Source: a virus. Taken from it: 36,754 bases of DNA. How positions within the stretch are numbered: position 1 is the stretch's first letter; each line of letters opens with the position of its first letter. The DNA lies in the IMG/VR virus record IMGVR_UViG_3300029867_000009, positions 1-36,754 of that record. One strand, written 5' to 3'. Below the pieces are notes generated by a model. It had not been told where the DNA came from, did not search any database, and saw nothing but the letters and a program-made list of their open reading frames with translations. Below are positions 1,828-29,291 of this stretch, piece after piece. The position numbers were made by a program, and so were the translations under genes.

Positions 1828-3452
1828 TAGCGATCCATTATCCTAAAATAACTATCCGTTTGCGCGGTTAGGTCGCCCGTTCCGGTGTTATTCGCTACTT
1901 GTAGCTTGACGTAATCATTTTGATCTAGCGTAACGTTTATATTTATATCAAAATCGCCGCGGTCTGTGCCACCTACAAGATTATTGATATCTCTTGTCTG
2001 CGTGTAAACATCAATAAAGCTTGTTGCGGAACTATCGAACTTTACAACCTTGACCGCCACGTCATTATTTGCAGGGCCTGCAATAACAAGGGATGATATA
2101 ACTGTGAACTCTCTAGGGTCGTTGCCAATGTGCCGTAGCTGTCCGTTACTTGGTTCATCAAAGTGCTGTAAATCCGTTGGCCCCCATGTTCCCGCGAGGT
2201 CAACAAATGTTGATGGTGATGAAATTGTAGTTGTTGCAGTACTATCAACGTTAAGCGTTCCTCCAACGTGTGTATTCGGCATTCCTTGGTTTCCCGACCA
2301 TGCGCTTGCCAATTCCACCTCTGTTATATTTGGCGTGATATTAGAATCAGACGCATCAGAAGTGCCGTTACGGGTAATAATAGCGCCCGTTATCTGCAAT
2401 GTTGATGGATTGGCAAAGTTAGCGGCTGCAAAATCAAAGAAAGAGGCGCTTGCCGGAAGGTCAATGTTCTGATTGCTTCTAAAGCGTGACTGCATAAGAA
2501 AGCTCGCGCCAGCCTCAAACAATGACCCCGTGAACCCCGAATCTAGGCCTCTAACGATAGACACATCAATGAAGTAACCGCCCGCCCATGCGCCTTTTAG
2601 AATAAGGTTAGGAGAGCCACCAAAGCGTCCAGTTCCAGACTCTAACCCCTGGCGGTAATTGTCGATAGTTCCAAGGGAAGTACAATTGTTGTAGTTAATG
2701 CGCGCAAACTCAAATGCTTCGTTGCCGGTATCGCTTACAATGTCATAAACCTGTGATCCCGCGCCCGTAACTTCGATGGCGTAATCTTTACCCAAAAGGT
2801 TGCCGCTGCCACCTACGGGAGATGTAAACATCGTGTAAGCGCCTGCGCTCGATATTAGCTTTGAAACATCGAAGTTATAGCCAGATAAATTCAGGCCCCC
2901 TACAGGAATTTCAATCTGTGTGGCTCCCATGTCAATAATGCCGTCAAGAAAGTATTCTTTGGTGCTGTCAAGCGCGCCTGATAGGTCCGAAGCGCTTTGA
3001 ACCAAGATTCTATTAATGCCGCCAAGTGATCCCGCTACGGCAAGAGTAACTTGATCATTTGATTTAGTGATGTTCATGCCGTCACCAGCAATCAATGTGG
3101 ATAATGTGGGGTCTTCAATGGTGAAGTCGTCTATAAGCTTGATGCCTGTCGCGCCCTGTTGCATACCAGATTTAACTTCAACGCTTTCTTGCGCATTAAT
3201 TGAAGTAATAATCCCGTCACCCCCAACAATGGAGCGAATGACCTTAGTTACACCTTGGTCGTCAAGAACCTGTGCGCCTGTTGCCTCGCCCCCTTGAACA
3301 ATGGTTCCCACAGTGCCGAACGCTGCAATCATATCAGATGCAGGGATTTTAAAGTTAACCCCCGCAGACACGAAATCAAACGTTGCATCACTAGGAATTT
3401 CCGTATTAGCCGGGAATGTTGATTTTCTTATGCCTTGGCTTCTAACTACCAT
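1827..3452 (-). CDS. Tail fibre/tailspike-like structural protein (541 aa)
   Basis: Long ORF in the virion module, rich in G/S/T/N beta-type segments (GGDGIITSINAQESVEVK, GDGMNITKSNDQVTLAVAG). It overlaps the adaptor gene by 11 nt. No family recognised. Confidence 0.45.
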   Translation of the reverse strand: MVVRSQGIRKSTFPANTEIPSDATFDFVSAGVNFKIPASDMIAAFGTVGTIVQGGEATGAQVLDDQGVTKVIRSIVGGDGIITSINAQESVEVKSGMQQGATGIKLIDDFTIEDPTLSTLIAGDGMNITKSNDQVTLAVAGSLGGINRILVQSASDLSGALDSTKEYFLDGIIDMGATQIEIPVGGLNLSGYNFDVSKLISSAGAYTMFTSPVGGSGNLLGKDYAIEVTGAGSQVYDIVSDTGNEAFEFARINYNNCTSLGTIDNYRQGLESGTGRFGGSPNLILKGAWAGGYFIDVSIVRGLDSGFTGSLFEAGASFLMQSRFRSNQNIDLPASASFFDFAAANFANPSTLQITGAIITRNGTSDASDSNITPNITEVELASAWSGNQGMPNTHVGGTLNVDSTATTTISSPSTFVDLAGTWGPTDLQHFDEPSNGQLRHIGNDPREFTVISSLVIAGPANNDVAVKVVKFDSSATSFIDVYTQTRDINNLVGGTDRGDFDININVTLDQNDYVKLQVANNTGTGDLTAQTDSYFRIMDR

Positions 3453-3936
3453 CTATTTCGTCCTGTGTACCGGTTTCTACACCAATTGCGCCCGTTGTCT
3501 CGGATAGGATCTCTTCTTCGGTACACCCATAGTATTTGCGGCTGTTCGTGCTGTTGTCGTAATTGCCAGAACCTCGCGGTAGCGTAGAAGGAAATGCGGT
3601 TTCACCTAACACAATTCCTAGCTGTTGCATTGTTTTCAGGCCGGACTCTGCCGCCCTAACTAATCCAGAGCTAATGTCTCCTCCATAATCGGGGGAAATC
3701 TCTATAGCTATGTTCGCAATAGCGCCCCGTAGAGCGCCAAGGGGGATAGTAACTTCATCACTGAGGCTTGTGACCACCGTATAGCCAAGTTTCACGCCTT
3801 GAGCGTCTAGGTCCAGCATGTAGTTGTTCATAGAAAAGATTGCATCACTGAACTCGTCAGCCTGCAATTCAGCGTCTGCACCTTGAACAAGTATGCGCTT
3901 TAATGATGCTTCTAGAACTTGTGCAGCGGTTGCCAT
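3442..3936 (-). CDS. Head-to-tail adaptor, P22 gp4-like
   Basis: 164 aa. ...IANIAIEISPDYGGDIS...AFPSTLPRGSGNYDNS... parallels P22 gp4 ...LACRIAPDYALEAT...PYPSRMPTGSGNSF... It lies downstream of the capsid gene. Confidence 0.65.
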   Translation of the reverse strand: MATAAQVLEASLKRILVQGADAELQADEFSDAIFSMNNYMLDLDAQGVKLGYTVVTSLSDEVTIPLGALRGAIANIAIEISPDYGGDISSGLVRAAESGLKTMQQLGIVLGETAFPSTLPRGSGNYDNSTNSRKYYGCTEEEILSETTGAIGVETGTQDEIDGS

Positions 3937-4074
3937 TTATTCGGCCTTTTTCTCTTTGGATTTCTTCTTAGGTCCACGCTTGCGTTTCCAGCCGAAGCCT
4001 TCAGCCGCCGCAATTGATCCCTCTGTTTCGTTAACTTCAAGCTCAACACCGCTTGGTTTTACCCACATACCCAT
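3937..4074 (-). CDS. Small Lys-rich ORF (45 aa) between the capsid and adaptor genes
   Basis: Hand translation gives MGMWVKPSGVELEVNETEGSIAAAEGFGWKRKRGPKKKSKEKKAE. GGAG lies 7 nt upstream of the ATG, and the stop abuts the adaptor ATG. It is below the ORF-track length cutoff. Confidence 0.45.
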   Translation of the reverse strand: MGMWVKPSGVELEVNETEGSIAAAEGFGWKRKRGPKKKSKEKKAE

Positions 4075-4088
4075 AATAACACTCCGTG

Positions 4089-4119
4089 AAAAGGTAGGGA
4101 GCCGCCGAAGCAGCCCCCC
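4089..4119 (-). terminator. UUCG-tetraloop hairpin plus short U tract immediately after the major capsid gene (leaky terminator or mRNA stabiliser)
   Basis: The minus-strand RNA is GGGGGCUGC-UUCG-GCGGCUCCC, a 9-bp stem with two G-U pairs, followed by UACCUUUUC. It lies 14 nt after the capsid stop, and (GA)5 sits at 4120..4130. Confidence 0.5.
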
Positions 4120-4132
4120 GAGAGAGAGAAGT

Positions 4133-5419
4133 TTAACCGAAGCTCTTACCGGCCATGAATGGATTCATAACGCCGTAAGCTGGTAGAATATCAACCCGAA
4201 GAACTTGCTTGTTCTGGATCAAGTTACCATCAAGAGCCATACGCATTGAAATACCGTCAACGTTAACTACGCTGTTGTCCATGCCGTGTAGCTTAGGAAT
4301 GTCAACAAAGCCCAATGTGAAGGCGTCAGGGTGCCAGAATAGATTAGGCTGGAAGGTTGTTGATGCAGCACCAAGTAGGGTGATGACATCAGTTGCAACA
4401 ATCGCGCTGTCTACAGTGTTATAGGCACCAGCGGCTTCAAAGATGGCTGGACCTGCGATAATGATAGTACCATCACCGGAACCGTCTAGTAGAGCATCCG
4501 CTGTAACAACGGCAGTAAATGGAACCTTAGCGCCGGTTTCATCAATGATCGGATCGCGTGTTGACTTATCAAGTGCGAAACGTCCAGAAATGCGGATAAC
4601 TTCACCAGCACGAATCTGAAGGTTAGCCTGGAAACCAGTGATCGCAACTGATTGCGTCATAGTGTCCTTGGCTGCAAGATAAGTAACAACCGGGTTAGTG
4701 TCGATAGCACCGGCACGATCAGCGCCAACCTCTGAGGAATATGTAGGTAGCGTATTAGCTGTGAACACGTCCATTCCAGCAAAGTTTCTAGTGATCAATG
4801 CTTTTTCGTGAGCTGTATCAACAAGTGAGTTACTACCTGAACCCAAAGAACGCTGGTCGCTAGCTAGGGCGCGCTGGGTGAATGGGTTAACATAGTATTT
4901 CCATGCTTTATCCATTGGTACGCCGTTAGCCTGCATTACTGCGCCAGCATCGGCCACATGATCCCATGTGCTAACTGCTGTGCCGTATGTACCAGAAAGC
5001 AAACCAGCATTTTTACTGATAAACGCTGCATAGTCACGCTCTAGGTCAGTTGCAAGGCGGGTAGCCATTGGACCAAAGATAGACTGAAGCTCGCCGGGCT
5101 TGCCTTTTTGGTCAAGCTCAATAGCTTCTTGTAGGCGGTTATACTCAACCCATACAGTACGCCATTCCTGGACTGTAGCAGTTGCCTTACCAGCAATCAG
5201 AGCGCTTGATGTTGAGGAAGTCAAATCACCAGTTGCATCAGTAAATGATGTGTAATCGTGCGGGCGCTTAACATCAACCTTGTCACCTGTTGACGGGTTA
5301 AACTGTCCTGAAATCAACTGTGTGTTAACGCCTTTTGACAGCACGCGAGCACTATCAAAAGCAGGGAGAAACTTACGAAGAAGTTTTCGTGTTATGTTGC
5401 TGTCTAAATTGTCAGCCAT
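4133..5419 (-). CDS. Major capsid protein (P22 coat / gp5-like)
   Basis: 428 aa, directly downstream of the scaffold gene. Length and order match the P22 coat family, and it is followed by a strong hairpin. Confidence 0.8.
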   Translation of the reverse strand: MADNLDSNITRKLLRKFLPAFDSARVLSKGVNTQLISGQFNPSTGDKVDVKRPHDYTSFTDATGDLTSSTSSALIAGKATATVQEWRTVWVEYNRLQEAIELDQKGKPGELQSIFGPMATRLATDLERDYAAFISKNAGLLSGTYGTAVSTWDHVADAGAVMQANGVPMDKAWKYYVNPFTQRALASDQRSLGSGSNSLVDTAHEKALITRNFAGMDVFTANTLPTYSSEVGADRAGAIDTNPVVTYLAAKDTMTQSVAITGFQANLQIRAGEVIRISGRFALDKSTRDPIIDETGAKVPFTAVVTADALLDGSGDGTIIIAGPAIFEAAGAYNTVDSAIVATDVITLLGAASTTFQPNLFWHPDAFTLGFVDIPKLHGMDNSVVNVDGISMRMALDGNLIQNKQVLRVDILPAYGVMNPFMAGKSFG

Positions 5420-5429
5420 TTCTAGTCAC

Positions 5430-6233
5430 CTATTTATAGACGGCCCTTTTGTTAATGTCCGGTTCTTTATCCGGTATGCCTGAACCACTAACAATAGATA
5501 CAGGCTTTGGGGCCGTGGTTGTTTTCCGTGTGCCTGTAAGCTTAGGTTTGACTTCAGAGTGAATATATACAGCGGCCTGTGCTAGTGACATTCTAAAAAC
5601 TTTATCACGTTCTACAGGGTCGTTAGCTAAATGGGCTGTAATCAGCGGTCCGTGTGCGTCATCAAGTATATGATAAAACAAACCTTCCGATATTCCATCC
5701 CGCGCAAGGATATTAGCGCTGTCATTCATTGCTGCTTCTTCAATACCGAATGATTTCGCTGAACCCTCGTATTTAGTTACACGCTGCTTTTGTACCTCTT
5801 GGTTCTCAACCTGCTTACGGTAAGTCTCTTGCTGGATTTGCGCTTCATGCGCCTGTTGTCCTGCATTAAACTCAGCACGTTTAATTATTGCCGCTTCCCT
5901 TGCCTCGACTTGAGCCTTGTATTTGGCCGGATCATCGAAATGTTCATCGGGGTTAGGGAGTGGCGGAAGTTCTGGTGCCTTATCCTCTGGCAGCTTGCCT
6001 TGCATTTCTGTTAACTGGCGTTGTAGGTCTTCAGCTCTGCGCTCTGCTGCGCGTTGTGCTCCAACCTTCTGCCCGATTAACTCGTTGACTTTAGCTTGCT
6101 GCGGTTCGTCAAAAGTAACCTTCGCTTCCTGTTCAACCGGGGCGTCACCCTCTGGCTGTTCTGCTTCTACCGGTGCCGACTCGGTAACAACATCTTCTAC
6201 GATGTCTTGCGGCTCATTCTGGAAATCATCCAT
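5430..6233 (-). CDS. Scaffolding protein
   Basis: 267 aa with an acidic N-terminus and a long charged helical/coiled region (AERRAEDLQRQLTEMQ..., QQETYRKQVENQEVQKQR). It lies between the portal and capsid genes. Confidence 0.7.
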   Translation of the reverse strand: MDDFQNEPQDIVEDVVTESAPVEAEQPEGDAPVEQEAKVTFDEPQQAKVNELIGQKVGAQRAAERRAEDLQRQLTEMQGKLPEDKAPELPPLPNPDEHFDDPAKYKAQVEAREAAIIKRAEFNAGQQAHEAQIQQETYRKQVENQEVQKQRVTKYEGSAKSFGIEEAAMNDSANILARDGISEGLFYHILDDAHGPLITAHLANDPVERDKVFRMSLAQAAVYIHSEVKPKLTGTRKTTTAPKPVSIVSGSGIPDKEPDINKRAVYK

Positions 6234-10968: not shown

Positions 10969-10987
10969 GATATTTCACCTATCTTGC

Positions 10988-11021
10988 ATAAAGCCCGCAG
11001 CATGAAATATTCATTATGCGG
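10988..11021 (-). terminator. Candidate intrinsic terminator ending the early-left operon
   Basis: The minus-strand RNA is CCGCA-UA-AUGAA-UAU-UUCAU-GC-UGCGG followed by GCUUUAU. The stem is imperfect and the U tract is weak. Confidence 0.3.
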
Positions 11022-11063
11022 TAGGGTTAGTATATATTACTTACGCCCACCGCAAAGTCTTTT

Positions 11064-11528
11064 TTATTTGGTTAGGTTTACGCCTTCACATCTTGCAGCG
11101 AAATTGAACAATCCTGGCTCAACTGAGATGCCTTTTTTCTTCAGCTCTACGCACATCATGATAATGTCGTATTCACCCTGGCGTTGGGCCGAGCGTATGA
11201 TTGATTGTTGCAGCTTCTTACAGCGTGTCACTGTTGATCCTAGTGGGATGCTTAAGCTAATGCCGCCAGTGAAGCCCGTTGTGCCTCTACCATAGTAACC
11301 GCTTGTGTACGTCGGGAGTATGCCCACTGTGAGTTTAGGCGCGTCACAAGTTACGGCCTCGCGTGTGAATAATGATTGGGAAGCTCTGCCATCACCGAAT
11401 GAATAAATGTTCTGGTTGTTGGTGTTGGCGGAATTGAAAGACGATTGCAAATTTGATTGCAAGCTGTCCTGTGCTACGGCCCCCGTCGTGAAACAGAGGC
11501 CGAGCACCACTAGAACCAGCCGGTTCAT
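11064..11528 (-). CDS. Secreted protein of unknown family (signal peptide, N/Q/S-rich head, 4 Cys)
   Basis: MNRLVLVVLGLCFTTGAVAQ looks like a signal peptide. TAATG coupling to the upstream gene. Confidence 0.7.
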   Translation of the reverse strand: MNRLVLVVLGLCFTTGAVAQDSLQSNLQSSFNSANTNNQNIYSFGDGRASQSLFTREAVTCDAPKLTVGILPTYTSGYYGRGTTGFTGGISLSIPLGSTVTRCKKLQQSIIRSAQRQGEYDIIMMCVELKKKGISVEPGLFNFAARCEGVNLTK

Positions 11529-12028
11529 TAATCTACTCGCGAATAGCTGATGTTAGTGGTGTAACGCTCACGTGTGTTTGTGTCGCTTCCATAACGGGTG
11601 GTTTCGTCAATGGTTGCGAATGTGGTTTCGAGGGCGTTGCTATTGAAAGCCACATCGAGTGAAAAACCATTAACGTTGGAAGTTCCGCGAACACGGGTGG
11701 TGCTGCGTGAGCGTGTGTATAGATCACGGTTGCCTGTGGTGGCTGTCAGTCCGTTGAAACTGTACGACGCGCTGGAGAACGTGCCGTTTGTGCGTGAACT
11801 GCCACGCTGGCGAATGCGGTAAGTGTCTGTTGTGACCATGTGGCTAAGGCTGAAGCCATTAGGAGCGCCTGAAGCATGATCGTTAGTGCTAATGCTAAGT
11901 CCATCAGTTACCGCCCATGAATTTGTATTTGAGTGAGTTACGCCGTTAACGTAAATGTTTGTGGTGTCCGTTGCGGCGGCACCAAACGATAAGGCTAGAA
12001 CGGCAGAAATCGCGAGTAGTTTTTTCAT
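11528..12028 (-). CDS. Secreted S/T/N/R-rich beta-type protein of unknown family
   Basis: The ATG at 12028 (MKKLLAISAVLALSFGAAATD...) is preceded by AGGAAG 4 nt upstream. The longer track ORF (to 12115) lacks an RBS. The NGFSL motif is duplicated. Confidence 0.7.
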   Translation of the reverse strand: MKKLLAISAVLALSFGAAATDTTNIYVNGVTHSNTNSWAVTDGLSISTNDHASGAPNGFSLSHMVTTDTYRIRQRGSSRTNGTFSSASYSFNGLTATTGNRDLYTRSRSTTRVRGTSNVNGFSLDVAFNSNALETTFATIDETTRYGSDTNTRERYTTNISYSRVD

Positions 12029-12076
12029 TAGTCTTCCTAAATTAAAGTTGTGACCAATGATTGTTATGTTTTTAAC

Positions 12077-12114
12077 TGAGGGGAATACAGCCTTACTGTG
12101 ACTATACCCCCTCA
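12077..12114 (-). other. Hairpin in the 122-nt spacer between the protease gene and the secreted-protein pair
   Basis: tgagggg (12077..12083) pairs with cccctca (12108..12114), with an inner ACAG/CTGT stem. No U tract follows on either strand. Confidence 0.5.
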
Positions 12115-12150
12115 ATGTGTTGCATTAAATCTTCTTGTGTTGCTGAATTA

Positions 12151-12648
12151 TTACATATGAATGATGTAGCTTATTGTTGGCTTTGGGTAAACTAGCTGCC
12201 CAATAATTTGCTCTGGCTTGTAGTGAGAATGTTTCACCTTAACCATTGTGCTGTAAACCTTGCCGTACCTGCCTTCATATGGGGCCTCGATTAAATACGT
12301 GCCGCTTGTTGTTTCAATGAATAAAACAGCGTGTGCAAAATACTCATCGTATCGACGGGCTTTCACATACATAACCCGCAGAGAGTTTCCTTGAGTGCCA
12401 ATTGCGTCTTCTATCTGGCCTTTGTAGGCAAGCGCCCAATCTTCGCAGTCACCCTGCCAATCAGCTAGTCTTAAATCAATGCCGTAATCTACAACGCCGT
12501 GCTTCTTGATGTCAGAAACATAAGTCCCGCGTTCCTGCACGTATTCGAGTGCGTGCTTAATTGCCTTGATGTTCTCTTTATGTGGGATTTGTGCGAGTGC
12601 TGGAACGGTAAACATTAGCATTACAGCGGTTAAAATAATGGTTTTCAC
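12151..12648 (-). CDS. Exported transglutaminase-like cysteine protease (BTLCP / LapG-like, PF06035-type)
   Basis: GTG start with GGAG 9 nt upstream. Signal peptide MKTIILTAVMLMFTVPALA|Q. Ordered motifs YVSD..DY..WQGDCEDWALAYK ... FAHAVLF ... YLIEAP match the GDCED[YF]A / HAVL / LD signature of BTLCP proteins. Confidence 0.6.
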   Translation of the reverse strand: MKTIILTAVMLMFTVPALAQIPHKENIKAIKHALEYVQERGTYVSDIKKHGVVDYGIDLRLADWQGDCEDWALAYKGQIEDAIGTQGNSLRVMYVKARRYDEYFAHAVLFIETTSGTYLIEAPYEGRYGKVYSTMVKVKHSHYKPEQIIGQLVYPKPTISYIIHM

Positions 12649-12650
12649 TT

Positions 12651-12821
12651 TTATTTCTCCAATGCCTTAAGTACGTCTATGCGAACTTGCAAAACCCTCT
12701 CTGCTATCAAGGGTATGTCTTCACCCCATCCAGTTACTGCGTGTGGTGTGCGGCCTATGTACCTGGCGAACTCTGCCTTAGTCTTGAAGCCTGCCGCGTG
12801 TAGCCTGTCTACAAAGTTCAT
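12651..12821 (-). CDS. Small HTH protein (Cro/YdaS-like, 56 aa)
   Basis: Hand translation gives MNFVDRLHAAGFKTKAEFARYIGRTPHAVTGWGEDIPLIAERVLQVRIDVLKALEK. ATGA coupling with the upstream ORF. Confidence 0.55.
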   Translation of the reverse strand: MNFVDRLHAAGFKTKAEFARYIGRTPHAVTGWGEDIPLIAERVLQVRIDVLKALEK

Positions 12822-12934
12822 AGGGATTTCTTAACCGCGTCGATCATTGAAGGAATTGCAACAAATAGCACCACCCCTACCAGTGCAGTTATTCCCGCAA
12901 CGTTGGCGGCAAAGCTTAATATCTGATCAATCAC
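12818..12934 (-). CDS. 38-aa single-TM peptide
   Basis: GTG start preceded by GGGAGAGAGAC. Sequence (M)IDQILSFAANVAGITALVGVVLFVAIPSMIDAVKKSL. The stop overlaps the next ATG. Confidence 0.4.
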   Translation of the reverse strand: MIDQILSFAANVAGITALVGVVLFVAIPSMIDAVKKSL

Positions 12935-13033
12935 GTCTCTCTCCCTGAATTAATGTACGGGCTTTTTGTCATTCTTCGTAAGGCTACCCGCATCCCCTCA
13001 CATCAGCCGGGTACGTCCCGGTCTACTTCTGAA

Positions 13034-13207
13034 TTAATCGCCGTCAGCCACATTTCCCGTAGGTGGCAGCAACTCTATTTTCATGCCCTTTAGCTGCATG
13101 TCATTGCCTCCAATGTGGACGCTCAGGGGATTTGTACATACAATCTCGTATGCAATGCCTCTGGTGGTGCGGCCTTTGTCGCCTAGCTTGAATTTATAAT
13201 TGTTCAT
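13034..13207 (-). CDS. Hypothetical 57-aa protein
   Basis: Verified codon by codon: MNNYKFKLGDKGRTTRGIAYEIVCTNPLSVHIGGNDMQLKGMKIELLPPTGNVADGD. RBS context GAGGGCGAGACATG. Confidence 0.5.
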   Translation of the reverse strand: MNNYKFKLGDKGRTTRGIAYEIVCTNPLSVHIGGNDMQLKGMKIELLPPTGNVADGD

Positions 13208-13377
13208 GTCTCGCCCTCTTTGTCTGCGGGTTGGTTAGTTTGCAGCCACTCAAGGAGGCTTTTGGCCTGGATCTTATCTAACGCGACCATGGCGGAACCA
13301 TCCCAATCATCTACACGTATAGCCAGTTCGTTGCCGCCCCAGTACACATGCAAGTCGTCTAACTTAAATTCACTCAT
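13204..13377 (-). CDS. Hypothetical 57-aa protein
   Basis: MSEFKLDDLHVYWGGNELAIRVDDWDGSAMVALDKIQAKSLLEWLQTNQPADKEGET. RBS context GGGGCGAGACATG. ATGA overlap with the next ORF. Confidence 0.5.
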   Translation of the reverse strand: MSEFKLDDLHVYWGGNELAIRVDDWDGSAMVALDKIQAKSLLEWLQTNQPADKEGET

Positions 13378-13675
13378 GTCTCGCCCCTGTGTTTGATGTG
13401 TTGAGCGGTGTGCGGCCCGGCATTAATGAACAGTCTCTGGCTTCCGGTCAGGATAATGCTATCGCTATTTTGCCTACTTCCTCTGGTATCTGATCATCTG
13501 CACACACCTTACTCAATACATACTCAGAACTTGTAACGAGGCCCCGCGTTACTAAGGCTAGCTGTTTTCCTCATGGTTCCCTTGCGGGCGTCGGCGGGCT
13601 GCAATCCCCTTAAGCATTTTAAAGACTGCCCATGTCTATCGCGCTTCTACTTTCAGCGCCGCTCGTTACCATCCT

Positions 13676-13703
13676 AATATACGTATTATTTACATCATTG
13701 CAA
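13676..13703 (-). promoter_or_regulatory. sigma70-like promoter (TTGCAA-16-TATATT), a paralogue of the leftward switch promoter
   Basis: On the minus strand, TTGCAA is at 13703..13698 and TATATT at 13681..13676. The spacer and the +1 region resemble the promoter at 18427..18454 (TATATTA-GATG follows in both). Confidence 0.5.
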
Positions 13704-13721
13704 GCCCTGAGTGAAAATAAT

Positions 13722-18515: not shown

Positions 18516-18746
18516 ATGAGTAAGAATAAACACACCAAACAGGCGGTTGCTAATGTTGAGTCGGCGCTTGTGAAGGCGCAAGTTAAGCTTGGCTCCCTTC
18601 TCGCTAGAACAGGTATAGCCGCCTCGCAGTGGTCCCAATATAAAGGCGGGTTCAATAGCCCTTCAGTAGAAAGATGGGTTATGGTTGAGATGGAATTAGC
18701 AGGCATTCTTGAAGAAATCAGGGAGCTTGAAAATGGACGCGAATAA
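18516..18746 (+). CDS. Cro/XRE-like HTH regulator
   Basis: 76 aa. LGSLLARTGIAASQWSQYKGGFNSP is an HTH pattern. It is the first gene of the rightward operon at the divergent switch region. Confidence 0.65.
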   Translation: MSKNKHTKQAVANVESALVKAQVKLGSLLARTGIAASQWSQYKGGFNSPSVERWVMVEMELAGILEEIRELENGRE

Positions 18747-19209
18747 ATTCCTTGTAGATTACATCAGGCCGGTATTGTCTGAAATGGATATGTTTAGCGC
18801 ACCTGCTGAAAAGCTTTTGCTAATGACGGCGTGCCACGAAAGCGGCGGTTTCAGAACAAAGGTTCAAGACGGTGGAGGCCCTGCAAGGTCTTACTTTCAG
18901 GTAGAGCCTACAACGCTTGAAGATCTATCGGATAATTACCTACGTTACAGGCCGCATAAAATACGTGTGCTTGAGAAGTTCGAGGGTGAAGGCGATAGCT
19001 TGGCAGAGATGCTGCTTGATAACCGTTACTCTGTGGCAGTTGCCAGGATGATCTATTCTCGCGTTCCTGAGCCGCTACCAGCCGTTGAAGACAATAAAAA
19101 CATGGCTAGGTACTGGAAGACATATTGGAACACACATCTAGGCGCTGGAACTGTTAAGAAGTTTCTTGCGGATTGGAAGTTATATAGGCCGGAGGGATAC
19201 CATGAATAA
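18733..19209 (+). CDS. Lysozyme-like / lytic-transglycosylase-like protein (endolysin candidate)
   Basis: ATG at 18733 with GGGAG upstream. TACHESGGF...GGGPARSYFQVEPTT resembles the E-S ... G-x-x-Q motifs of SLT-type enzymes. No signal peptide. Confidence 0.4.
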   Translation: MDANKFLVDYIRPVLSEMDMFSAPAEKLLLMTACHESGGFRTKVQDGGGPARSYFQVEPTTLEDLSDNYLRYRPHKIRVLEKFEGEGDSLAEMLLDNRYSVAVARMIYSRVPEPLPAVEDNKNMARYWKTYWNTHLGAGTVKKFLADWKLYRPEGYHE

Positions 19210-25596: not shown

Positions 25597-25804
25597 GTTC
25601 CATAGCAAGATTGTGGCGGCGTTCTTCTCTCACCTGCCACAATTTAATGGCAATACCCGTAACGGCTACAAATAGAGTTATTAAAATGCCATATGCTGGT
25701 GCATTAGCCCCTATGCTGTCTAGCCATGATAAACCGGATACTGTAGCGCTACCGCTTGCGCCCACTATCATCATTCCGGCCCCGGTTTTCCCTGTTAAAG
25801 TCAT
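25529..25804 (-). CDS. Two-TM holin-like protein, last gene of the late operon
   Basis: 91 aa with hydrophobic segments GAGMMIVGASGSATVSGL and YGILITLFVAVTGIAIKLW followed by a basic tail. ATGA coupling. Confidence 0.5.
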   Translation of the reverse strand: MTLTGKTGAGMMIVGASGSATVSGLSWLDSIGANAPAYGILITLFVAVTGIAIKLWQVREERRHNLAMEPKKKIPPRHSQPTPPNQYHTSS

Positions 25805-26430
25805 TTTGGCGCTTTCTCAATAGGCGGGCGGAACACCGACATAATAAGACTATTCCGGCCTCTAGTAGTATAATTGGGACTAGCCACAACGGATGCAAGC
25901 CCACTAATGCGCCCCATAAGTCTAGAAATATTCCATCCATCCCGCTTCCCACCACTAATAATTACTGCTATCTGTGCAGCGTTCAGGGCTAAAATGCACC
26001 ACGCATAGTTGTAATATATAATGTTGATTCCTGCAAGTAGCTGTTTGAATGGTGTTTGCTGCGAGTGTCCACCGCTGTATAGTAGTATTTTAATTATAAG
26101 CAGTGCGGATATAATAGCGGATAGGCCCAATATAATGCCCATTTCATCGCGGCCTTTTCGTGAATACCTAACGATTAAAGATAGGGTTGCTAGATCAAGA
26201 GCGCCAGCTATCCCATACATAGCAACGTTTGTAAGTAGCGTACCGTGTGCCGCAGCATATTCAAACACAAACGCCAGCAATAGATTTAAGGCACACACAG
26301 CGCCAATAATAAACAGTGTGGGGTGCCAAGTGTCAGGCTTTTGTACCGTAGGCAATGAAAGGCCAAGCATCCCAAAGAAGCACAGAGCCATAATCACATA
26401 GGGGGTATATTGTGCAATCTCGTAGCTCAT
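25801..26430 (-). CDS. Polytopic membrane protein (5-6 TM) of unknown function
   Basis: The ATG at 26430 overlaps the upstream stop (ATGA). There are repeated hydrophobic 18-22-aa segments. No family recognised. Confidence 0.65.
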   Translation of the reverse strand: MSYEIAQYTPYVIMALCFFGMLGLSLPTVQKPDTWHPTLFIIGAVCALNLLLAFVFEYAAAHGTLLTNVAMYGIAGALDLATLSLIVRYSRKGRDEMGIILGLSAIISALLIIKILLYSGGHSQQTPFKQLLAGINIIYYNYAWCILALNAAQIAVIISGGKRDGWNISRLMGRISGLASVVASPNYTTRGRNSLIMSVFRPPIEKAPK

Positions 26431-26687
26431 TTTTCGCAAAACCTTTCTGCAAGGTCGTTGTTATCCGCAATCTTGTCTAGATCTTGCTTTACATAGTCAG
26501 GCCACGGCTCACGGGTTAACCAAGCTTTAGTTTCCTCTGAAAACTTCTGGCTTTCAAACCAAGTGCAGTCTGTAGCAAGTTTAACTCGTATTGTGGGAGT
26601 TAGAAAACTACAAGCGCTTAACGATGTCAGCGTCAGTAGAAGAATTGTTAATCTTCCTATGCTCCGAAGCTTCTTTCCTGATTTCAT
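26427..26687 (-). CDS. Lipoprotein (o-spanin-like or exclusion lipoprotein)
   Basis: ATG at 26687: MKSGKKLRSIGRLTILLLTLTSLSAC with lipobox LSAC. The mature part has C..W...S..T..W...N....C spacing as in Rz1-like lipoproteins. Confidence 0.55.
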   Translation of the reverse strand: MKSGKKLRSIGRLTILLLTLTSLSACSFLTPTIRVKLATDCTWFESQKFSEETKAWLTREPWPDYVKQDLDKIADNNDLAERFCEK

Positions 26688-26808
26688 CTTGCTTGTCTCT
26701 GCTTTCAAGTTCAGCTTTTCTAGCACCGTCTGCTTTTAACTCCGCATCCCTAGAATTTTGCATTCCAATTCCAAGGATACGAAGAAAGCTTTTAACAATC
26801 TCAAGCAC
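26608..26808 (-). CDS. Small coiled-coil protein overlapping the lipoprotein gene out of frame (i-spanin-like)
   Basis: GTG start. 66 aa with a weakly hydrophobic N-terminus and a charged helix. The 80-nt overlap with the lipoprotein ORF resembles an Rz/Rz1 arrangement. Confidence 0.35.
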   Translation of the reverse strand: MLEIVKSFLRILGIGMQNSRDAELKADGARKAELESRDKQDEIRKEASEHRKINNSSTDADIVKRL

Positions 26809-27065
26809 TAACCGCCGCCGGGCAATGTATCGTCGCCAGGAAGTACCGGAGGGTCCGGAACAATAACCACGCGATTAGGCGCAATGTCTTTTGCTTTACC
26901 GAAGTTGAGCGCGAGGAACTCAATAATTCCGTAGATTTTACCTACAAGTTCGTCATCTTTCGGTGTTGGTGTTAGTGCAACAATAGCCTTTGCTCCCACC
27001 ATCAACGAGAGTAGTGCTGTTAGCCAAGCAGGCGCTTGACCAAATAGTTCTAAAACAGTCTCCAT
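26808..27065 (-). CDS. Small membrane protein (holin candidate)
   Basis: 85 aa with the hydrophobic stretch APAWLTALLSLMVGAKAIVAL followed by TPTPKDDE. Confidence 0.5.
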   Translation of the reverse strand: METVLELFGQAPAWLTALLSLMVGAKAIVALTPTPKDDELVGKIYGIIEFLALNFGKAKDIAPNRVVIVPDPPVLPGDDTLPGGG

Positions 27066-27077
27066 AACAAATCCATT

Positions 27078-29291
27078 CTAAGCTAGTGCGGCTTCTGCCG
27101 CTGTGCCGATCAGCCGCTTGCTGCCCTTACGGCTAACAGCCCGGATCGTATCCGAAGTTATAACACTGTTGCTAGCGTCTGTAAAATCTGTGCGCTCTAA
27201 GCCAATGAAGGTGCTTACACCGTCACTAGTTCCAACATCAATGAGTCCTTGGCTTACAGATACCGATGAAACCGCATTGCTTGTACCGTCGAGTAAGGCG
27301 TTTGCGTTTGCAACGAATAAAACCTTTTCGTCGTTGTTTATTTTGGTGCTTTGAGCCGCAGTTTGCGCGTATGCCTGAATTCTCAACAAGCTCAGTGACG
27401 AAGTTAGTGCAGGGTTAAGACCATCGACATCGAGCCCTATGCGTAAAATTGCTGTTGCATTGTCCAAGTTGCCAAGAGCTTGAATCACCTGCCCAACTTG
27501 GACGCCATCAATTTTAACGGTGAGCGTATCGGTTCCGCTAGTGTCGAAATCCCAATCAAGTAAATGCCATACCCCATCATCATAAGCCTGTGAGGTTGTC
27601 ACTGTTGAAGTTGTGGAACCATCCCCAATCTGTACACGAATCGTCCCGTCTGCCAGCATAACAGCCTGTATTTGGCTTCCTATCTTTGCTGTGTCCTGGC
27701 GGGCATAATATGTCTCGATTGTGGTGTTTCCTGAAGAATTGAAGGCTATTATTGAGCCTACCGGTCCGGTACCAAAATCAAAATCAGCATCAAACTGCCG
27801 TTCTAGGTAGCGAGCAGAAGTAAACCCACTGTACGCCATCAACTCAGCGCCGGTCTCTACTGCGGCTTTCGTTAGGGTTCCGTTGACGGATAGGTCGTTA
27901 GATTTTACGCTTCGATCCTCCACTGCAATCACTATTGACACATTATCAATAGAAAGATCAGATGTGCCTGTAGTAACAAACTCAAGCTGATTTTGTCCTG
28001 ATTCAGCGGTGAAATACTCTGTAAATGTTCCTGTTGCTGCCCTAACTGTACCAAGTCCGAACGGTACTCCTCCCGAAGCTGAAAGTCTTATCTGTATCTG
28101 CCCTGCTGTGAATGATGTAACTGTGTACGTGATGGCATAAGTCTTTCCCGTGACGAAAGAGACAGCCTGCGTCAGTTCTGAGGGGGTGCCCGCCGCCTTG
28201 GTCGCAACACCAGCAGCGATAGTCCATCCTGTACCTTTAGTCCAAGCTGTGTCACTGGCGAAGTCACCATTAGTAACCAACTCACCACCGATAGACTCAG
28301 CGGTACTATCAGACAAAGCAGCCAAGCGGATATCACCGGGCTTTGATCCCGAATTGAAATCTTTTGTTATTTGAGTTGCAACGCTATCGCCACCTGAGCC
28401 GATAACATAATCAACAATGAATACGCCAACGCTGGTTCCTATAATGAACGAAGTTGCGCTACTGATTTCCACACTTGTAATTGTGCCGGTTACTGTCGGT
28501 CCTGTTGTTGCTGATGTGTTCATAATGAAGTCAGCAGACGCTAGGGCGGTGTCGATCGCAGGAACGGACTCGAATATATAAACGTCCGTAGCCGATGCCA
28601 TAACACATAGACCGCTTGCATCAATATCACCAGTGACCAGAGCAATTGCACCTGTTCCATCAGTAACATCATTAACATTTGATAGAGAACCTTCATGGTT
28701 TACCCATGATGAACCCGCCGCCGTCATTGCTTCAATTGTAGGGAAGGGGAGTGAACTTGACCCGTCTATCTCTGCGCCTGATAGGGCTGTGATTGCAACG
28801 TCATTTACCGTGTCATTAACAATCCCATCACCGTTAGCAGTTCCCCACGTTACGGTAGACATATTAAAGCTTGCGACGTCTTGGTCTGCAAGTTGGTTGC
28901 CTGTGGTGTTCCTGCGCCTAACCTCGTCTTTCTCAAGGTCTATTGTGACAATGCCTGAAGAAGTACCTATAACAATGACGCCGTTTAATGCGTCTACAGA
29001 TGTTGCGCCAACGAGAACCCATGTTTTAAACAAAGATGCAGCGCTCGCCGTAATATCAAAGTCTGACAATAAAGCAGCTTCAAGAACTAAACCATTAATT
29101 TTGGGTAGTGTCTGCCCTATGGTAGAAGATGCCCCGGCGCGCCAATCTAGACTATCGAGTGAAATATCATAAACATCATCATCAATAACATTAGCTGTTG
29201 TTTTAAGAACTGCGGTAAATGCCGTATCAGATGTTGAGCCTACAAAAGCGTTAATCCCCGCCGTTGTTGCGCCTACAAATGTATTTGTCAT
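27078..29291 (-). CDS. Tail fibre / receptor-binding protein with carbohydrate-binding and lectin-like regions
   Basis: 737 aa. GELVTNGDFASDTAWTKGTGWTIAAG is a CBM-type motif common in phage fibres. WHLLDWDFDTSGTDTLTVKIDGVQVG is LamG/ConA-like. Confidence 0.65.
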   Translation of the reverse strand: MTNTFVGATTAGINAFVGSTSDTAFTAVLKTTANVIDDDVYDISLDSLDWRAGASSTIGQTLPKINGLVLEAALLSDFDITASAASLFKTWVLVGATSVDALNGVIVIGTSSGIVTIDLEKDEVRRRNTTGNQLADQDVASFNMSTVTWGTANGDGIVNDTVNDVAITALSGAEIDGSSSLPFPTIEAMTAAGSSWVNHEGSLSNVNDVTDGTGAIALVTGDIDASGLCVMASATDVYIFESVPAIDTALASADFIMNTSATTGPTVTGTITSVEISSATSFIIGTSVGVFIVDYVIGSGGDSVATQITKDFNSGSKPGDIRLAALSDSTAESIGGELVTNGDFASDTAWTKGTGWTIAAGVATKAAGTPSELTQAVSFVTGKTYAITYTVTSFTAGQIQIRLSASGGVPFGLGTVRAATGTFTEYFTAESGQNQLEFVTTGTSDLSIDNVSIVIAVEDRSVKSNDLSVNGTLTKAAVETGAELMAYSGFTSARYLERQFDADFDFGTGPVGSIIAFNSSGNTTIETYYARQDTAKIGSQIQAVMLADGTIRVQIGDGSTTSTVTTSQAYDDGVWHLLDWDFDTSGTDTLTVKIDGVQVGQVIQALGNLDNATAILRIGLDVDGLNPALTSSLSLLRIQAYAQTAAQSTKINNDEKVLFVANANALLDGTSNAVSSVSVSQGLIDVGTSDGVSTFIGLERTDFTDASNSVITSDTIRAVSRKGSKRLIGTAAEAALA

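What the first reader, a model, noticed from the sequence alone, without database searches (positions are those of the whole stretch)
11064..12028. Translationally coupled pair of orphan secreted proteins completing a three-gene exported module
Seen: the two ORFs are joined by TAATG at 11528, and both start with textbook signal peptides (MKKLLAISAVLALSFGAAA|TD and MNRLVLVVLGLCFTTGAVA|QD). The first mature protein is dominated by S/T/N/R/G, with alternating strand-like segments and a duplicated NGFSL motif. The second has an N/Q/S-rich head (QSNLQSSFNSANTNNQNIYSFGDG), a Gly-rich strand (YYGRGTTGFTGGISLSIPLG) and four Cys. Both contain NIY-x-x-G near the mature N-terminus. I cannot place either in a family. 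Together with the protease gene they sit at the extreme 3' end of the early-left operon, just before the late promoter, which is a typical moron position. A 122-nt spacer with a hairpin (12077..12114) separates them from the protease. Inference: the three genes form an envelope-remodelling or exclusion module, possibly a protease with its substrate or partners, or a surface fibre or amyloid-like pair. This is my best candidate for an undescribed system in the window.
Basis: partly seen in the sequence, partly recalled or inferred. Interest (0 to 1): 0.65.

Follow-up and report, generated by a model that had tools for sequence, protein, structure and literature searches.

The report
Conserved secreted gene pair of marine phages
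The two coupled genes are real, but they are not orphans tied to the neighbouring protease: they are one copy of an uncharacterised two-gene cassette for exported proteins that recurs in vibriophages, hundreds of cyanophage genomes and marine metagenomic phages.

Summary
On the minus strand, gene A (12028..11528, 166 aa) and gene B (11528..11064, 154 aa) overlap in TAATG. Both begin with signal-peptide-like N-termini, and A is under purifying selection (dN/dS 0.14-0.27).

B is not an orphan. A full HMMER scan found 25 remote relatives sharing four invariant cysteines and an I-P-L motif; 17 of the 25 sequences in that family alignment match phrog_1755 (function unknown). tblastn with a cyanophage member hits 447 phage records.

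In all 14 loci with readable upstream sequence (13 plus the window), the B-type gene directly follows a gene for a signal-peptide-bearing, S/T/G/N-rich protein of 101-258 aa. The spacing is usually an overlap or 1-3 nt, at most 67 nt. These partners show no detectable similarity over their bodies. In 9 of the 11 tested, a short motif sits at predicted mature position 9 (8 in one).

None of the other loci has a BTLCP gene within the sequence retrieved. In the nearest full relative, two small ORFs fill that slot. The trio is therefore not supported, but a conserved pair is.

The AlphaFold model of B (pLDDT 73.5) has no PDB fold match. Function is unknown. My leading guess is an exported A-B envelope complex used for superinfection exclusion or receptor masking; a lysis role is the main rival.

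The parts
11528..12028 (-). Gene A: 166-aa exported protein. Signal peptide about residues 1-19 (MKKLLAISAVLALSFGAAA|TD). The mature part is about 50% S/T/G/N, with no Cys and no hydrophobic segment. It is the variable upstream partner of the cassette.
   Evidence: ORF and sequence; composition and hydropathy; dN/dS 0.14-0.27. Homologues: P0001 84% (L002), P0003 (L003), L066 partner 45%. Motif NGVTHS at mature position 9.
11064..11528 (-). Gene B: 154-aa exported protein. Signal peptide about residues 1-19 (MNRLVLVVLGLCFTTGAVA|QD). It has an N/Q/S-rich flexible head, an amphipathic beta-hairpin (about 59-93) and a long helix (98-131) plus a short helix (142-149). Four Cys (61, 103, 126, 147) are invariant across the family. 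It is the conserved partner of the cassette.
   Evidence: 25 remote homologues; alignment A4 with invariant C61, P95, C103, C126, C147; phrog_1755 / phrog_848 matches; AlphaFold model pLDDT 73.5.
11526..11530 (-). TAATG stop/start overlap that couples translation of A and B.
   Evidence: Sequence. The same TAATG is present in L002, L066, L067 and L068; a GTGA overlap or 1-3 nt gaps occur in L069, L062 and L063.
12033..12038 (-). Shine-Dalgarno AGGAAG, 4 nt before A's ATG. It supports the 166-aa start over the 103-aa public call.
   Evidence: Sequence; conserved in L002.
12076..12116 (-). Hairpin in the 122-nt spacer between the BTLCP gene and A. It has no U-tract, so it is not a canonical terminator. 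By eye, only the inner stem looks kept in L002 (not tested by a fold or pair count).
   Evidence: Fold -27.3 kcal/mol, z = -3.2; alignment with L002.
11017..11054 (-). Strong hairpin directly after B's stop codon. An A-run lies on one side and the T-run lies on the + strand side. It is a terminator-like boundary of the cassette.
   Evidence: Fold of 10969..11070: -31.5 kcal/mol, z = -4.4; sequence.
12151..12648 (-). BTLCP / LapG-like cysteine protease gene with a signal peptide. It is a neighbour, not a conserved partner of the pair.
   Evidence: Pfam Peptidase_C93 29.3 bits against a 27-bit cut-off; match to LapG structure 4u65 including the GDCED and AH-VL motifs. Absent from the sequence retrieved around 12 other A-B loci.
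12651..12821 (-). 56-aa Cro-like HTH gene. It is kept upstream of the pair in the closest relative, L066.
   Evidence: Pfam P22_Cro below the family's cut-off (17.7 vs 30.2 bits) and phrog_409; 42% identity, E = 2.8e-14, to the L066 58-aa ORF.
12818..12934 (-). 38-aa ORF with one hydrophobic (transmembrane-like) segment. It overlaps the HTH gene's start and was not called in the public record. A 52-aa ORF with a similar hydrophobic segment holds the same place in L066.
   Evidence: No sequence similarity between the two small proteins. Membrane topology was judged by eye; no predictor was run.

Best explanation
A and B are one instance of a conserved, phage-borne two-gene cassette that is independent of the BTLCP protease.

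Shown:
- The genes are translationally coupled.
- Both products carry Sec-type signal peptides.
- B belongs to a widespread family with four invariant cysteines.
- A occupies the position of a highly variable S/T/G/N-rich partner, whose only shared feature is a short motif at its predicted mature N-terminus.

Inferred mechanism:
1. Both proteins are exported to the periplasm in near-equal amounts.
2. B folds into a domain stabilised by two disulfides (a beta-hairpin plus a long helix).
3. B binds the conserved N-terminal strand of A.
4. The A-B complex sits in the periplasm or at the outer membrane of the infected cell.
5. B acts as the constant scaffold. A acts as the variable, specificity-determining surface.

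Most likely role (weakly supported): superinfection exclusion or receptor masking. The complex would block adsorption or DNA entry of further phages, and would keep progeny from sticking to cell debris.
For: Pair conserved:
- In all 14 loci with readable upstream sequence, the B-type gene directly follows a signal-peptide S/T/G/N-rich gene.
- These loci are the window, L002, L066, L067/L068, L069, L062, L063, S-CAM7, S-RIP1, L070, L071, Vpas_PP24, S-RSM4 and NATL2A-133.

B family:
- 25 hits at E <= 1e-3. C61, P95, C103 and C126 and C147 are invariant.
- 17 of the 25 aligned sequences match phrog_1755.
- tblastn with the S-RIP1 member hits 447 phage records.
- The model has pLDDT above 77 for residues 60-154.
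- BFVD fold matches are all to uncharacterised cyanophage and vibriophage proteins.

Partner motif:
- 9 of 11 partners carry [TNHQ]-G-x-[TYKMS]-x-[SA] at predicted mature position 9 (8 in one).
- No shuffle in 20,000 reached even 5 of 11.

Independence from BTLCP.

Variable-specificity idea:
- Between Vibrio phages 1.232.O and D279, B is 87% identical and A only 43%.
- The adjacent tail-fibre-like genes are unrelated.
- Nucleotide similarity stops about 130 nt into A and resumes about 40 nt before B.

Context: the cassette often follows tail-fibre genes (L062, L063, L067, L070, S-RIP1). From my own knowledge, the receptor-blocking genes llp (T5) and cor (T1/phi80) sit in the same place.
Against: - No experiment or fold match gives a function. 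PDB Foldseek and sequence searches are empty.
- An A-B interaction was not tested. A's AlphaFold model failed (pLDDT 28).
- With signal peptides removed, the partner proteins show no profile similarity. They could be analogues rather than homologues.
- The N-terminal motif was defined after looking at the sequences, and the cleavage sites were set by eye.
- Between the window and L066, A (45%) is no more diverged than B (41%). Hypervariability of A is therefore not general.
- The cassette is carried by phages of three morphotypes (T4-like myoviruses, T7-like and P22-like podoviruses). From my own knowledge the T4-like and T7-like cyanophages are lytic; lifestyle was not tested here. Small hydrophobic, membrane-like ORFs lie next to it in at least 6 of the 14 contexts. 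That fits a lysis role about equally well.
- Known exclusion proteins such as Llp are lipoproteins; neither A nor B has a lipobox.
Confidence: 0.35

Rival explanations
1. The pair acts in host lysis. It would be an outer-membrane-disrupting or lysis-timing module, functionally like spanins or antiholins, possibly working with an adjacent small membrane protein.
For: - Here the cassette sits directly upstream of the small terminase gene. From my own knowledge of P22, that is where P22-like phages keep holin, endolysin and Rz/Rz1 (window gene order).
- In the T7-like cyanophages S-RIP1 and NATL2A-133 it lies between the tail fibre gene and TerS, flanked by small ORFs with hydrophobic segments. 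From my own knowledge of T7, the holin and spanin genes sit there.
- L070 has a 72-aa ORF with two hydrophobic segments just upstream, and Vpas_PP24 an 89-aa hydrophobic ORF just downstream.
- The family's 447 tblastn records are almost all cyanophages, suggesting a core rather than accessory function. I know of no canonical spanins annotated in cyanophages.
- No Pfam endolysin was found among the window ORFs tested.
Against: - Neither protein has the defining spanin features: no N-terminal membrane anchor, no lipobox (sequences).
- The window has a separate plausible lysis cluster after the tailspike gene: an 85-aa membrane protein and a lipoprotein with a weak Rz-like hit.
- In L066 the pair lies next to an SSB gene in an early-type region. 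In S-CAM7 and S-RSM4 it lies among early or auxiliary genes.
Confidence: 0.22
2. The BTLCP protease, A and B form one functional module, with A or B as substrate or partner of the protease.
For: - The three genes are adjacent and co-oriented, and all three products have signal peptides.
- The spacer sequences downstream of the BTLCP homologue in L006 and upstream of A in L002 resemble each other and the window. The arrangement is probably shared by the closest relatives (75-84% identity).
Against: - 12 other A-B loci lack a BTLCP in the sequence retrieved.
- L066 keeps the membrane-protein + HTH ... A-B frame with two small ORFs in place of the protease.
- The closest cellular BTLCPs (40% identity) sit by EAL-domain and flagellar genes with no A or B.
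- L003 shows A behind a different upstream sequence.
- BTLCP genes are reported to move between unrelated river phages as a single gene (PMC11283719).
Confidence: 0.07
3. A is a small outer-membrane beta-barrel or a surface protein, and B is its periplasmic assembly or export factor (a mini usher or secretion pore). The pair would remodel the cell surface for adhesion, nutrient uptake or immune evasion, as a classic moron or auxiliary gene would.
For: - A-type partners are about 80-235 residues once the signal peptide is removed.
- They are predicted beta-rich and end in an alternating strand with an aromatic residue at or near the C-terminus (SWY, SAF, FSQ, YSRVD).
- B has a conserved amphipathic hairpin followed by a long helix.
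- Its weak geometric resemblance is to TolC / MtrE-type repeats (TM-score 0.27, E >= 0.5).
Against: - The partners are very polar. The maximum 11-residue hydropathy of the mature part is 0.2-1.9 (at most about 1.3 in 10 of the 11 partners tested) and the window protein's GRAVY is -0.71.
- Most do not end in an aromatic residue.
- The TolC similarity is not significant.
- There are no OMP Pfam hits.
Confidence: 0.15

Closest known systems
phrog_1755 / phrog_848 (PHROGs families of unknown function; 'gp165' and 'hypothetical cyanophage protein' in cyanophage records)
   Same: B and its relatives match these profiles. The window protein scores E = 2.8e-4 over residues 89-152, and family members reach 1.1e-16. 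They share the signal peptide, the four Cys and the I-P-L motif.
   Different: The families carry no function and no Pfam or NCBIfam model. The window protein is a distant member (at most 46% identity to anything else). I found no description of the fixed pairing with an upstream exported partner.
Receptor-blocking / superinfection-exclusion proteins next to tail-fibre genes (T5 Llp, T1/phi80 Cor; T4 Imm + Sp as a two-protein case)
   Same: These are small, phage-encoded, exported, non-structural proteins. They are often at the end of the tail-fibre module, fast-evolving, and present in lytic phages too. The comparison rests on my own knowledge of these systems.
   Different: Llp is a lipoprotein and Imm is an inner-membrane protein. 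A and B have cleavable signal peptides and no lipobox. There is no sequence or fold similarity. No phenotype was tested.
Two-component spanins (lambda Rz / Rz1)
   Same: These are also two coupled or overlapping genes for envelope proteins. Cysteines are important. They are often near holin and terminase genes and are very diverse in sequence.
   Different: The i-spanin needs an N-terminal membrane anchor and the o-spanin a lipoprotein signal. Neither is present here.
LapG-LapA (BTLCP protease and its adhesin substrate)
   Same: The neighbouring gene is a true BTLCP with the catalytic GDCED motif and His.
   Different: LapG substrates are giant type-1-secreted adhesins with an N-terminal retention module. 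A and B are small Sec substrates. The pair does not co-occur with BTLCP elsewhere.

Membership tests
B-type family (phrog_1755 / phrog_848, cyanophage gp165-like) | Significant profile or sequence match | tested here: met
   phmmer E = 1.6e-29 to 7e-4 for 25 representatives. phrog_1755 E = 2.8e-4 for B itself and 17 of the 25 aligned sequences match, best 1.1e-16.
B-type family (phrog_1755 / phrog_848, cyanophage gp165-like) | Four conserved cysteines and the I-P-L motif after an amphipathic hairpin | tested here: met
   C61, P95, C103, C126 and C147 are invariant in 25 sequences. The alternating hydropathy of the strands is conserved.
B-type family (phrog_1755 / phrog_848, cyanophage gp165-like) | Preceded by a gene for an exported S/T/G/N-rich protein | tested here: met
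   14 of 14 loci with readable upstream sequence.
LapG / BTLCP protease-substrate module | Substrate and protease genes co-occur across genomes | tested here: not met
   No BTLCP found by tblastn in the sequence retrieved around 10 other A-B loci, and none annotated beside the pair in S-RSM4 or NATL2A-133. The nearest BTLCP homologues lack A and B.
LapG / BTLCP protease-substrate module | Substrate carries an N-terminal retention module with a di-alanine cleavage motif and is exported by a type 1 system | tested here: not met
   A and B are 150-170 aa with Sec signal peptides. The only AA run in A lies in the signal-peptide cleavage region.
Two-component spanins (Rz / Rz1) | i-spanin with an N-terminal transmembrane anchor and periplasmic coiled coil | tested here: not met
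   Both N-termini are short and end in AxA sites. There are no other hydrophobic segments. No PHROG spanin hit.
Two-component spanins (Rz / Rz1) | o-spanin with a lipobox Cys | tested here: not met
   A has no Cys. B's only N-terminal Cys is in VLGLC, which is not a lipobox (sequence).
Curli subunits (CsgA / CsgB) | Tandem imperfect repeats of the curlin type (Pfam Curlin_rpt) | tested here: not met
   No Pfam hit at E <= 1. Internal alignment is no better than shuffles.
Small outer-membrane beta-barrels (OmpX / Ail / Lom type) | Family profile match and a C-terminal aromatic beta-signal | tested here: not met
   No Pfam or NCBIfam match. A ends in ...SYSRVD. The AlphaFold model is uninformative (pLDDT 28).
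Lipoprotein receptor blockers (Llp / Cor type) | Lipoprotein signal; gene next to the receptor-binding protein gene | tested here: inconclusive
   No lipobox. Tail-fibre adjacency is seen in several relatives but not in the window.

The most novel reading that the evidence does not exclude
The A-type / B-type pair, perhaps together with an adjacent small membrane protein, is a previously unrecognised envelope-acting system that is close to universal in marine cyanophages and also present in vibriophages. Two readings fit. It could be a new class of outer-membrane-disrupting lysis proteins that fills the 'missing spanin' gap in cyanophages. Or it could be a two-component receptor-masking system whose variable subunit co-evolves with the tail fibre.
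Probability: 0.22. Interest if true: 0.8.

Novelty: new variant of a known kind. Interest (0 to 1): 0.55.

Why it matters
tblastn with one cyanophage member of the B family hits 447 sequenced phage records. These cover T4-like and T7-like Synechococcus and Prochlorococcus phages; other family members hit about 30 Vibrio phage records. Despite this the family has no name, no Pfam model, no solved fold and no function.

It always travels with an exported, fast-diverging partner. It also turns up in a P22-like marine phage. Together these turn a set of 'hypothetical proteins' into a defined two-gene system.

The system can be tested genetically in culturable hosts such as Vibrio crassostreae phages or cyanophage-Synechococcus pairs. 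Either likely role would bear on how marine phages compete and how infected cells die. A role in outer-membrane lysis would address a real gap for cyanophages. A role as a variable exclusion or masking device would matter for phage competition.

For this window specifically, the result removes the attractive but unsupported idea of a protease-substrate trio.

Tried and rejected
- Pfam, NCBIfam, PHROGs and PADLOC scans of A and B: only a weak phrog_1755 hit for B.
- megablast and tblastn of A and B against 50,697 phage records, even at E <= 10: nothing.
- Word-indexed search of 5.8 billion proteins: only near-identical fragments.
- IMG/VR, JGI metagenome and GTDB genome scans for A, B, BTLCP, P0009 and sub-alignments: no confirmed relatives, or no usable pattern.
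- AlphaFold of A with 3 sequences: failed, pLDDT 28.
- PDB sequence searches with single sequences and with profiles: no credible hit.
- Foldseek of the B model against PDB: best E = 0.14.
- Internal repeat in A, and A-versus-B similarity: no better than shuffles.
- A first profile comparison of the A groups gave E = 8e-7. I rejected it because the signal vanished once signal peptides were removed.
- Related phages with TerL 67% identical: no synteny upstream of the terminase genes, so no positional information.
- P0026, a 1926-aa hit to B: an ankyrin/NACHT protein, so spurious.
- One family member hit Pfam OEP at E = 3e-5. I treated it as unsupported; possibly the coiled-coil tail seen in P0010, but the member was not identified.
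- B-family search on plasmids: none.
- Literature searches for the PHROG ids, cyanophage spanins and exported cyanophage proteins: nothing specific.
Full report
**1. What is in the window.**
The window is nearly all of NCBI contig NVUW01000011.1 (assembly GCA_002733205.1, 37.3 kb). It is a P22-like phage genome: Sf6-type small terminase, Terminase_3, P22 portal and coat. The genes of the finding lie on the minus strand. Their order is:
- a 38-aa ORF with one hydrophobic segment (12934..12818);
- a 56-aa Cro-like HTH (12821..12651);
- a BTLCP protease (12648..12151);
- a 122-nt spacer with a hairpin;
- gene A (12028..11528);
- gene B (11528..11064);
- a strong hairpin;
- a 65-aa ORF, then TerS and TerL.

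**2.
- A's stop and B's start share TAATG.
- A has an AGGAAG ribosome-binding site.
- Both proteins start with a charged n-region, a hydrophobic core and an AxA site, and neither has another hydrophobic segment.
- The public gene call for A is a truncated 103-aa version. A metagenomic homologue (P0001, 84% identity) is full length.
- Comparison with two metagenomic fragments gives dN/dS of 0.14-0.27, so A is a real protein-coding gene.
- One fragment (L002) also carries TAATG followed by a B homologue, so the coupling is conserved.
They give no alignment score above shuffled controls.

**3. B is not an orphan.**
Curated libraries are silent on both proteins. Word-indexed and BLAST searches found only near-identical fragments.

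A full HMMER pass over 1.84 billion cluster representatives found 25 relatives of B at E <= 1e-3; the best is P0009 (46% identity, E = 1.6e-29). One further hit, an ankyrin/NACHT protein, is spurious.

The family consists of proteins of 154-276 aa with these features:
- N-terminal signal peptides;
- an N/Q/S-rich low-complexity head;
- two conserved amphipathic strands separated by a variable Gly/Ser/Tyr loop;
- an invariant proline in an I-P-L motif;
- four invariant cysteines (B: C61, C103, C126, C147).

Of the 25 sequences in the family alignment, 17 match phrog_1755 and 7 match phrog_848, both of unknown function. No member shows a credible Pfam match (single-member hits to OEP and DUF485 only), and none matches NCBIfam.

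An AlphaFold model built from this alignment has mean pLDDT 73.5 (above 90 for residues about 100-150). It shows strands at 50-93, a 34-residue helix at 98-131 and a short C-terminal helix. It has no significant match among solved structures (best E = 0.14). Among predicted viral structures it matches only uncharacterised proteins: S-CAM7, P-SSP3, P-SSP10 'Gp165', S-RIP1 and some entries without names.

tblastn with family members finds the gene in about 30 Vibrio phage records. With the S-RIP1 member it finds 447 records, almost all Synechococcus or Prochlorococcus phages of both T4-like and T7-like types.

**4. The pair is the conserved unit.**
I examined every locus where sequence upstream of a B-type gene could be read. 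In all 14, the B-type gene is directly preceded on the same strand by a gene for a protein of 101-258 aa. That protein has a signal peptide, 36-57% S+T+G+N (measured in 11 of them), almost no Cys and no hydrophobic segment. Spacing ranges from overlaps (TAATG, GTGA) to 67 nt.

The 14 loci are:
- the window and L002;
- L066 (holds P0009);
- L067/L068 (P0010), L069 (P0011), L070 (P0019) and L071 (P0021);
- Vibrio phages 1.232.O, D279 and Vpas_PP24;
- cyanophages S-CAM7, S-RIP1, S-RSM4 and NATL2A-133.

L066's partner is clearly homologous to A (45% identity, E = 3e-45). The other partners are not detectably similar to A once signal peptides are removed. hhalign then gives E about 0.1-0.2, the same as a reversed-sequence control. 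An earlier E = 8e-7 was a signal-peptide artefact.

A short motif is nevertheless shared. [TNHQ]-G-x-[TYKMS]-x-[SA] occurs at predicted mature position 9 (8 in one case) in 9 of the 11 partners tested. None of 20,000 composition-preserving shuffles gave even 5 of 11. S-RSM4 and NATL2A-133, seen afterwards, show the same P-N-F-T-Q-G-S-M-x-S start. The motif was defined after inspection and the cleavage sites are my own estimates, so I treat it as strong but not formal evidence.

**5. The BTLCP is not part of the unit.**
The protease call itself is sound. Pfam C93 scores just above its cut-off. The match to LapG structure 4u65 includes the GDCED cysteine motif and the His motif.

Four results separate it from the pair:
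- tblastn finds no BTLCP in the sequence retrieved around 10 other A-B loci. None is annotated beside the pair in S-RSM4 or NATL2A-133.
- The nearest cellular BTLCPs (40% identity) sit beside EAL-domain and flagellar genes, without A or B.
- L066 has a small hydrophobic ORF and an HTH homologous to the window's (42% identity, E = 2.8e-14) upstream of its pair. Two unrelated ORFs of 61 and 62 aa sit where the BTLCP sits here.
- A river-virus study reports that BTLCP genes spread between unrelated phage clusters as single genes (PMC11283719).

Only the closest relatives (L002, L006) may share the trio, judging from similar spacer sequences.

**6. What it might do.**
Shown: two coupled genes; two exported products; a conserved partner with four cysteines; a variable partner with a conserved mature N-terminus.

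Inferred: an equimolar periplasmic or outer-membrane complex, in which B is the constant scaffold and A the variable face.

Two contextual patterns compete.

(a) Tail-fibre adjacency and variability.
- The cassette follows tail-fibre-like genes in L062, L063, L067, L070 and S-RIP1.
- Between two related vibriophages, B is 87% identical and A is 43%, while the adjacent fibre genes are unrelated.
- Nucleotide similarity breaks about 130 nt into A and resumes about 40 nt before B.
- This is the pattern of receptor-blocking genes such as llp and cor (my own knowledge). It favours exclusion or receptor masking.

(b) Lysis-type position.
- The cassette lies directly before TerS here and in T7-like cyanophages.
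- Small ORFs with hydrophobic segments often lie beside it.
- The family is close to ubiquitous in cyanophages, which suits a core function such as outer-membrane disruption.

Against (b):
- Both proteins lack the spanin hallmarks.
- The window has a separate candidate lysis cluster after its tailspike gene.
- Several relatives carry the pair in early or auxiliary regions.

I rank exclusion or masking first (about 0.35, including the complex model). Lysis comes second (0.22), a surface-protein plus assembly-factor reading third (0.15), and the BTLCP trio last (0.07).

**7. Novelty and verdict.**
B's family already exists in PHROGs and in cyanophage records as 'hypothetical'. The window therefore adds a distant member rather than a new family. 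What I could not find described is threefold:
- the fixed pairing with an exported variable partner;
- the partner's N-terminal motif;
- the module's spread across podo- and myoviruses of Vibrio, cyanobacteria and uncultured marine hosts.

The finding is real and moderately interesting. Its value shifts from 'orphan trio with a protease' to 'local copy of a widespread, uncharacterised two-gene envelope cassette'.

Noticed in passing
window 12151-12648 (-): A phage-borne BTLCP / LapG-like cysteine protease with a signal peptide and an intact GDCED and His motif. Its closest cellular homologues (40% identity; L004, L005) sit next to EAL-domain, LexA-like (Peptidase_S24), cold-shock and flagellar genes. 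Its target in this phage's host is unknown.
   Followed up: partly
window 12650-13720 (-), especially 12818-12934: The public gene calls leave this stretch empty. It nevertheless holds a 38-aa ORF with one hydrophobic segment overlapping the start of a 56-aa Cro-like HTH, plus two 57-aa ORFs (13207..13034 and 13377..13204). The small-ORF + HTH arrangement is kept in L066.
   Followed up: partly
window 11528-12028 (-): The public gene call for A (P0002, 103 aa) starts at an internal Met (window 11839). It omits the signal peptide and 63 residues. The ribosome-binding site and a full-length homologue support the 166-aa form.
   Followed up: yes
L003 (ENA contig, 576 bp) 125-576: The first 102 codons of an A homologue are joined, at a CGCG microhomology, to the reverse complement of the 38-aa ORF / 57-aa ORF region. 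The sequence upstream of A is also different. This is either a real inversion in a related phage or a chimeric assembly. The contig was seen in two samples.
   Followed up: partly
L074 (S-RSM4) 2324-3241; L065 (S-RIP1) 3683-4324; L075 (NATL2A-133) 2084-3115: In these three cyanophages the B-type reading frame overlaps the 3' end of the partner gene in another frame. No ATG, GTG or TTG precedes its signal-peptide-like segment. Annotated starts are far downstream, or the gene is not annotated at all (S-RSM4). This suggests a non-canonical start or a programmed frameshift.
   Followed up: partly
L064 (S-CAM7) 3884-4393: The annotated start of gp027 (4022) cuts off a signal peptide. An ATG at 3884 gives MLKHLFVGALISFSCSPVLA, a full-length family member.
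   Followed up: yes
window 25801-27065 (-): A candidate lysis cluster lies directly after the tailspike-like gene (27078..29291). It holds an 85-aa hydrophobic protein (phrog_9685), a 99-aa lipoprotein with an LSAC lipobox and a weak Rz-like spanin hit, and a 212-aa multi-pass-looking protein. No endolysin domain was recognised in any window ORF tested.
   Followed up: partly
window 18709-19209 (+): A 166-aa ORF with a strong match to phrog_3108 (unknown function). By eye it carries an E-S ... S-Y-F-Q-V-E pattern like lytic transglycosylases, but it has no Pfam hit. It could be the missing endolysin.
   Followed up: no
window 11017-11054: A strong hairpin lies after B's stop codon. Its T-run is on the + strand side and only an A/U-rich tail is on the coding side. 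It looks like a bidirectional or antisense-facing terminator.
   Followed up: partly
L062 vs L063 (Vibrio phages 1.232.O and D279), locus positions 4340-5430: Nucleotide similarity covers the partner gene's first ~130 nt (signal peptide and N-terminus) and all of the B-type gene, but not the body of the partner gene or the upstream tail-fibre genes. This marks a sharp mosaic boundary inside the partner gene.
   Followed up: partly
window 11001-12000: GC skew changes sign relative to the neighbouring genes: coding-strand skew is -0.21 for A, against +0.03 to +0.25 for most neighbours. GC content is only slightly raised (0.49-0.50 against 0.47). Probably the many ACN, TCN and AGC codons for Thr and Ser account for the skew.
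   Followed up: partly
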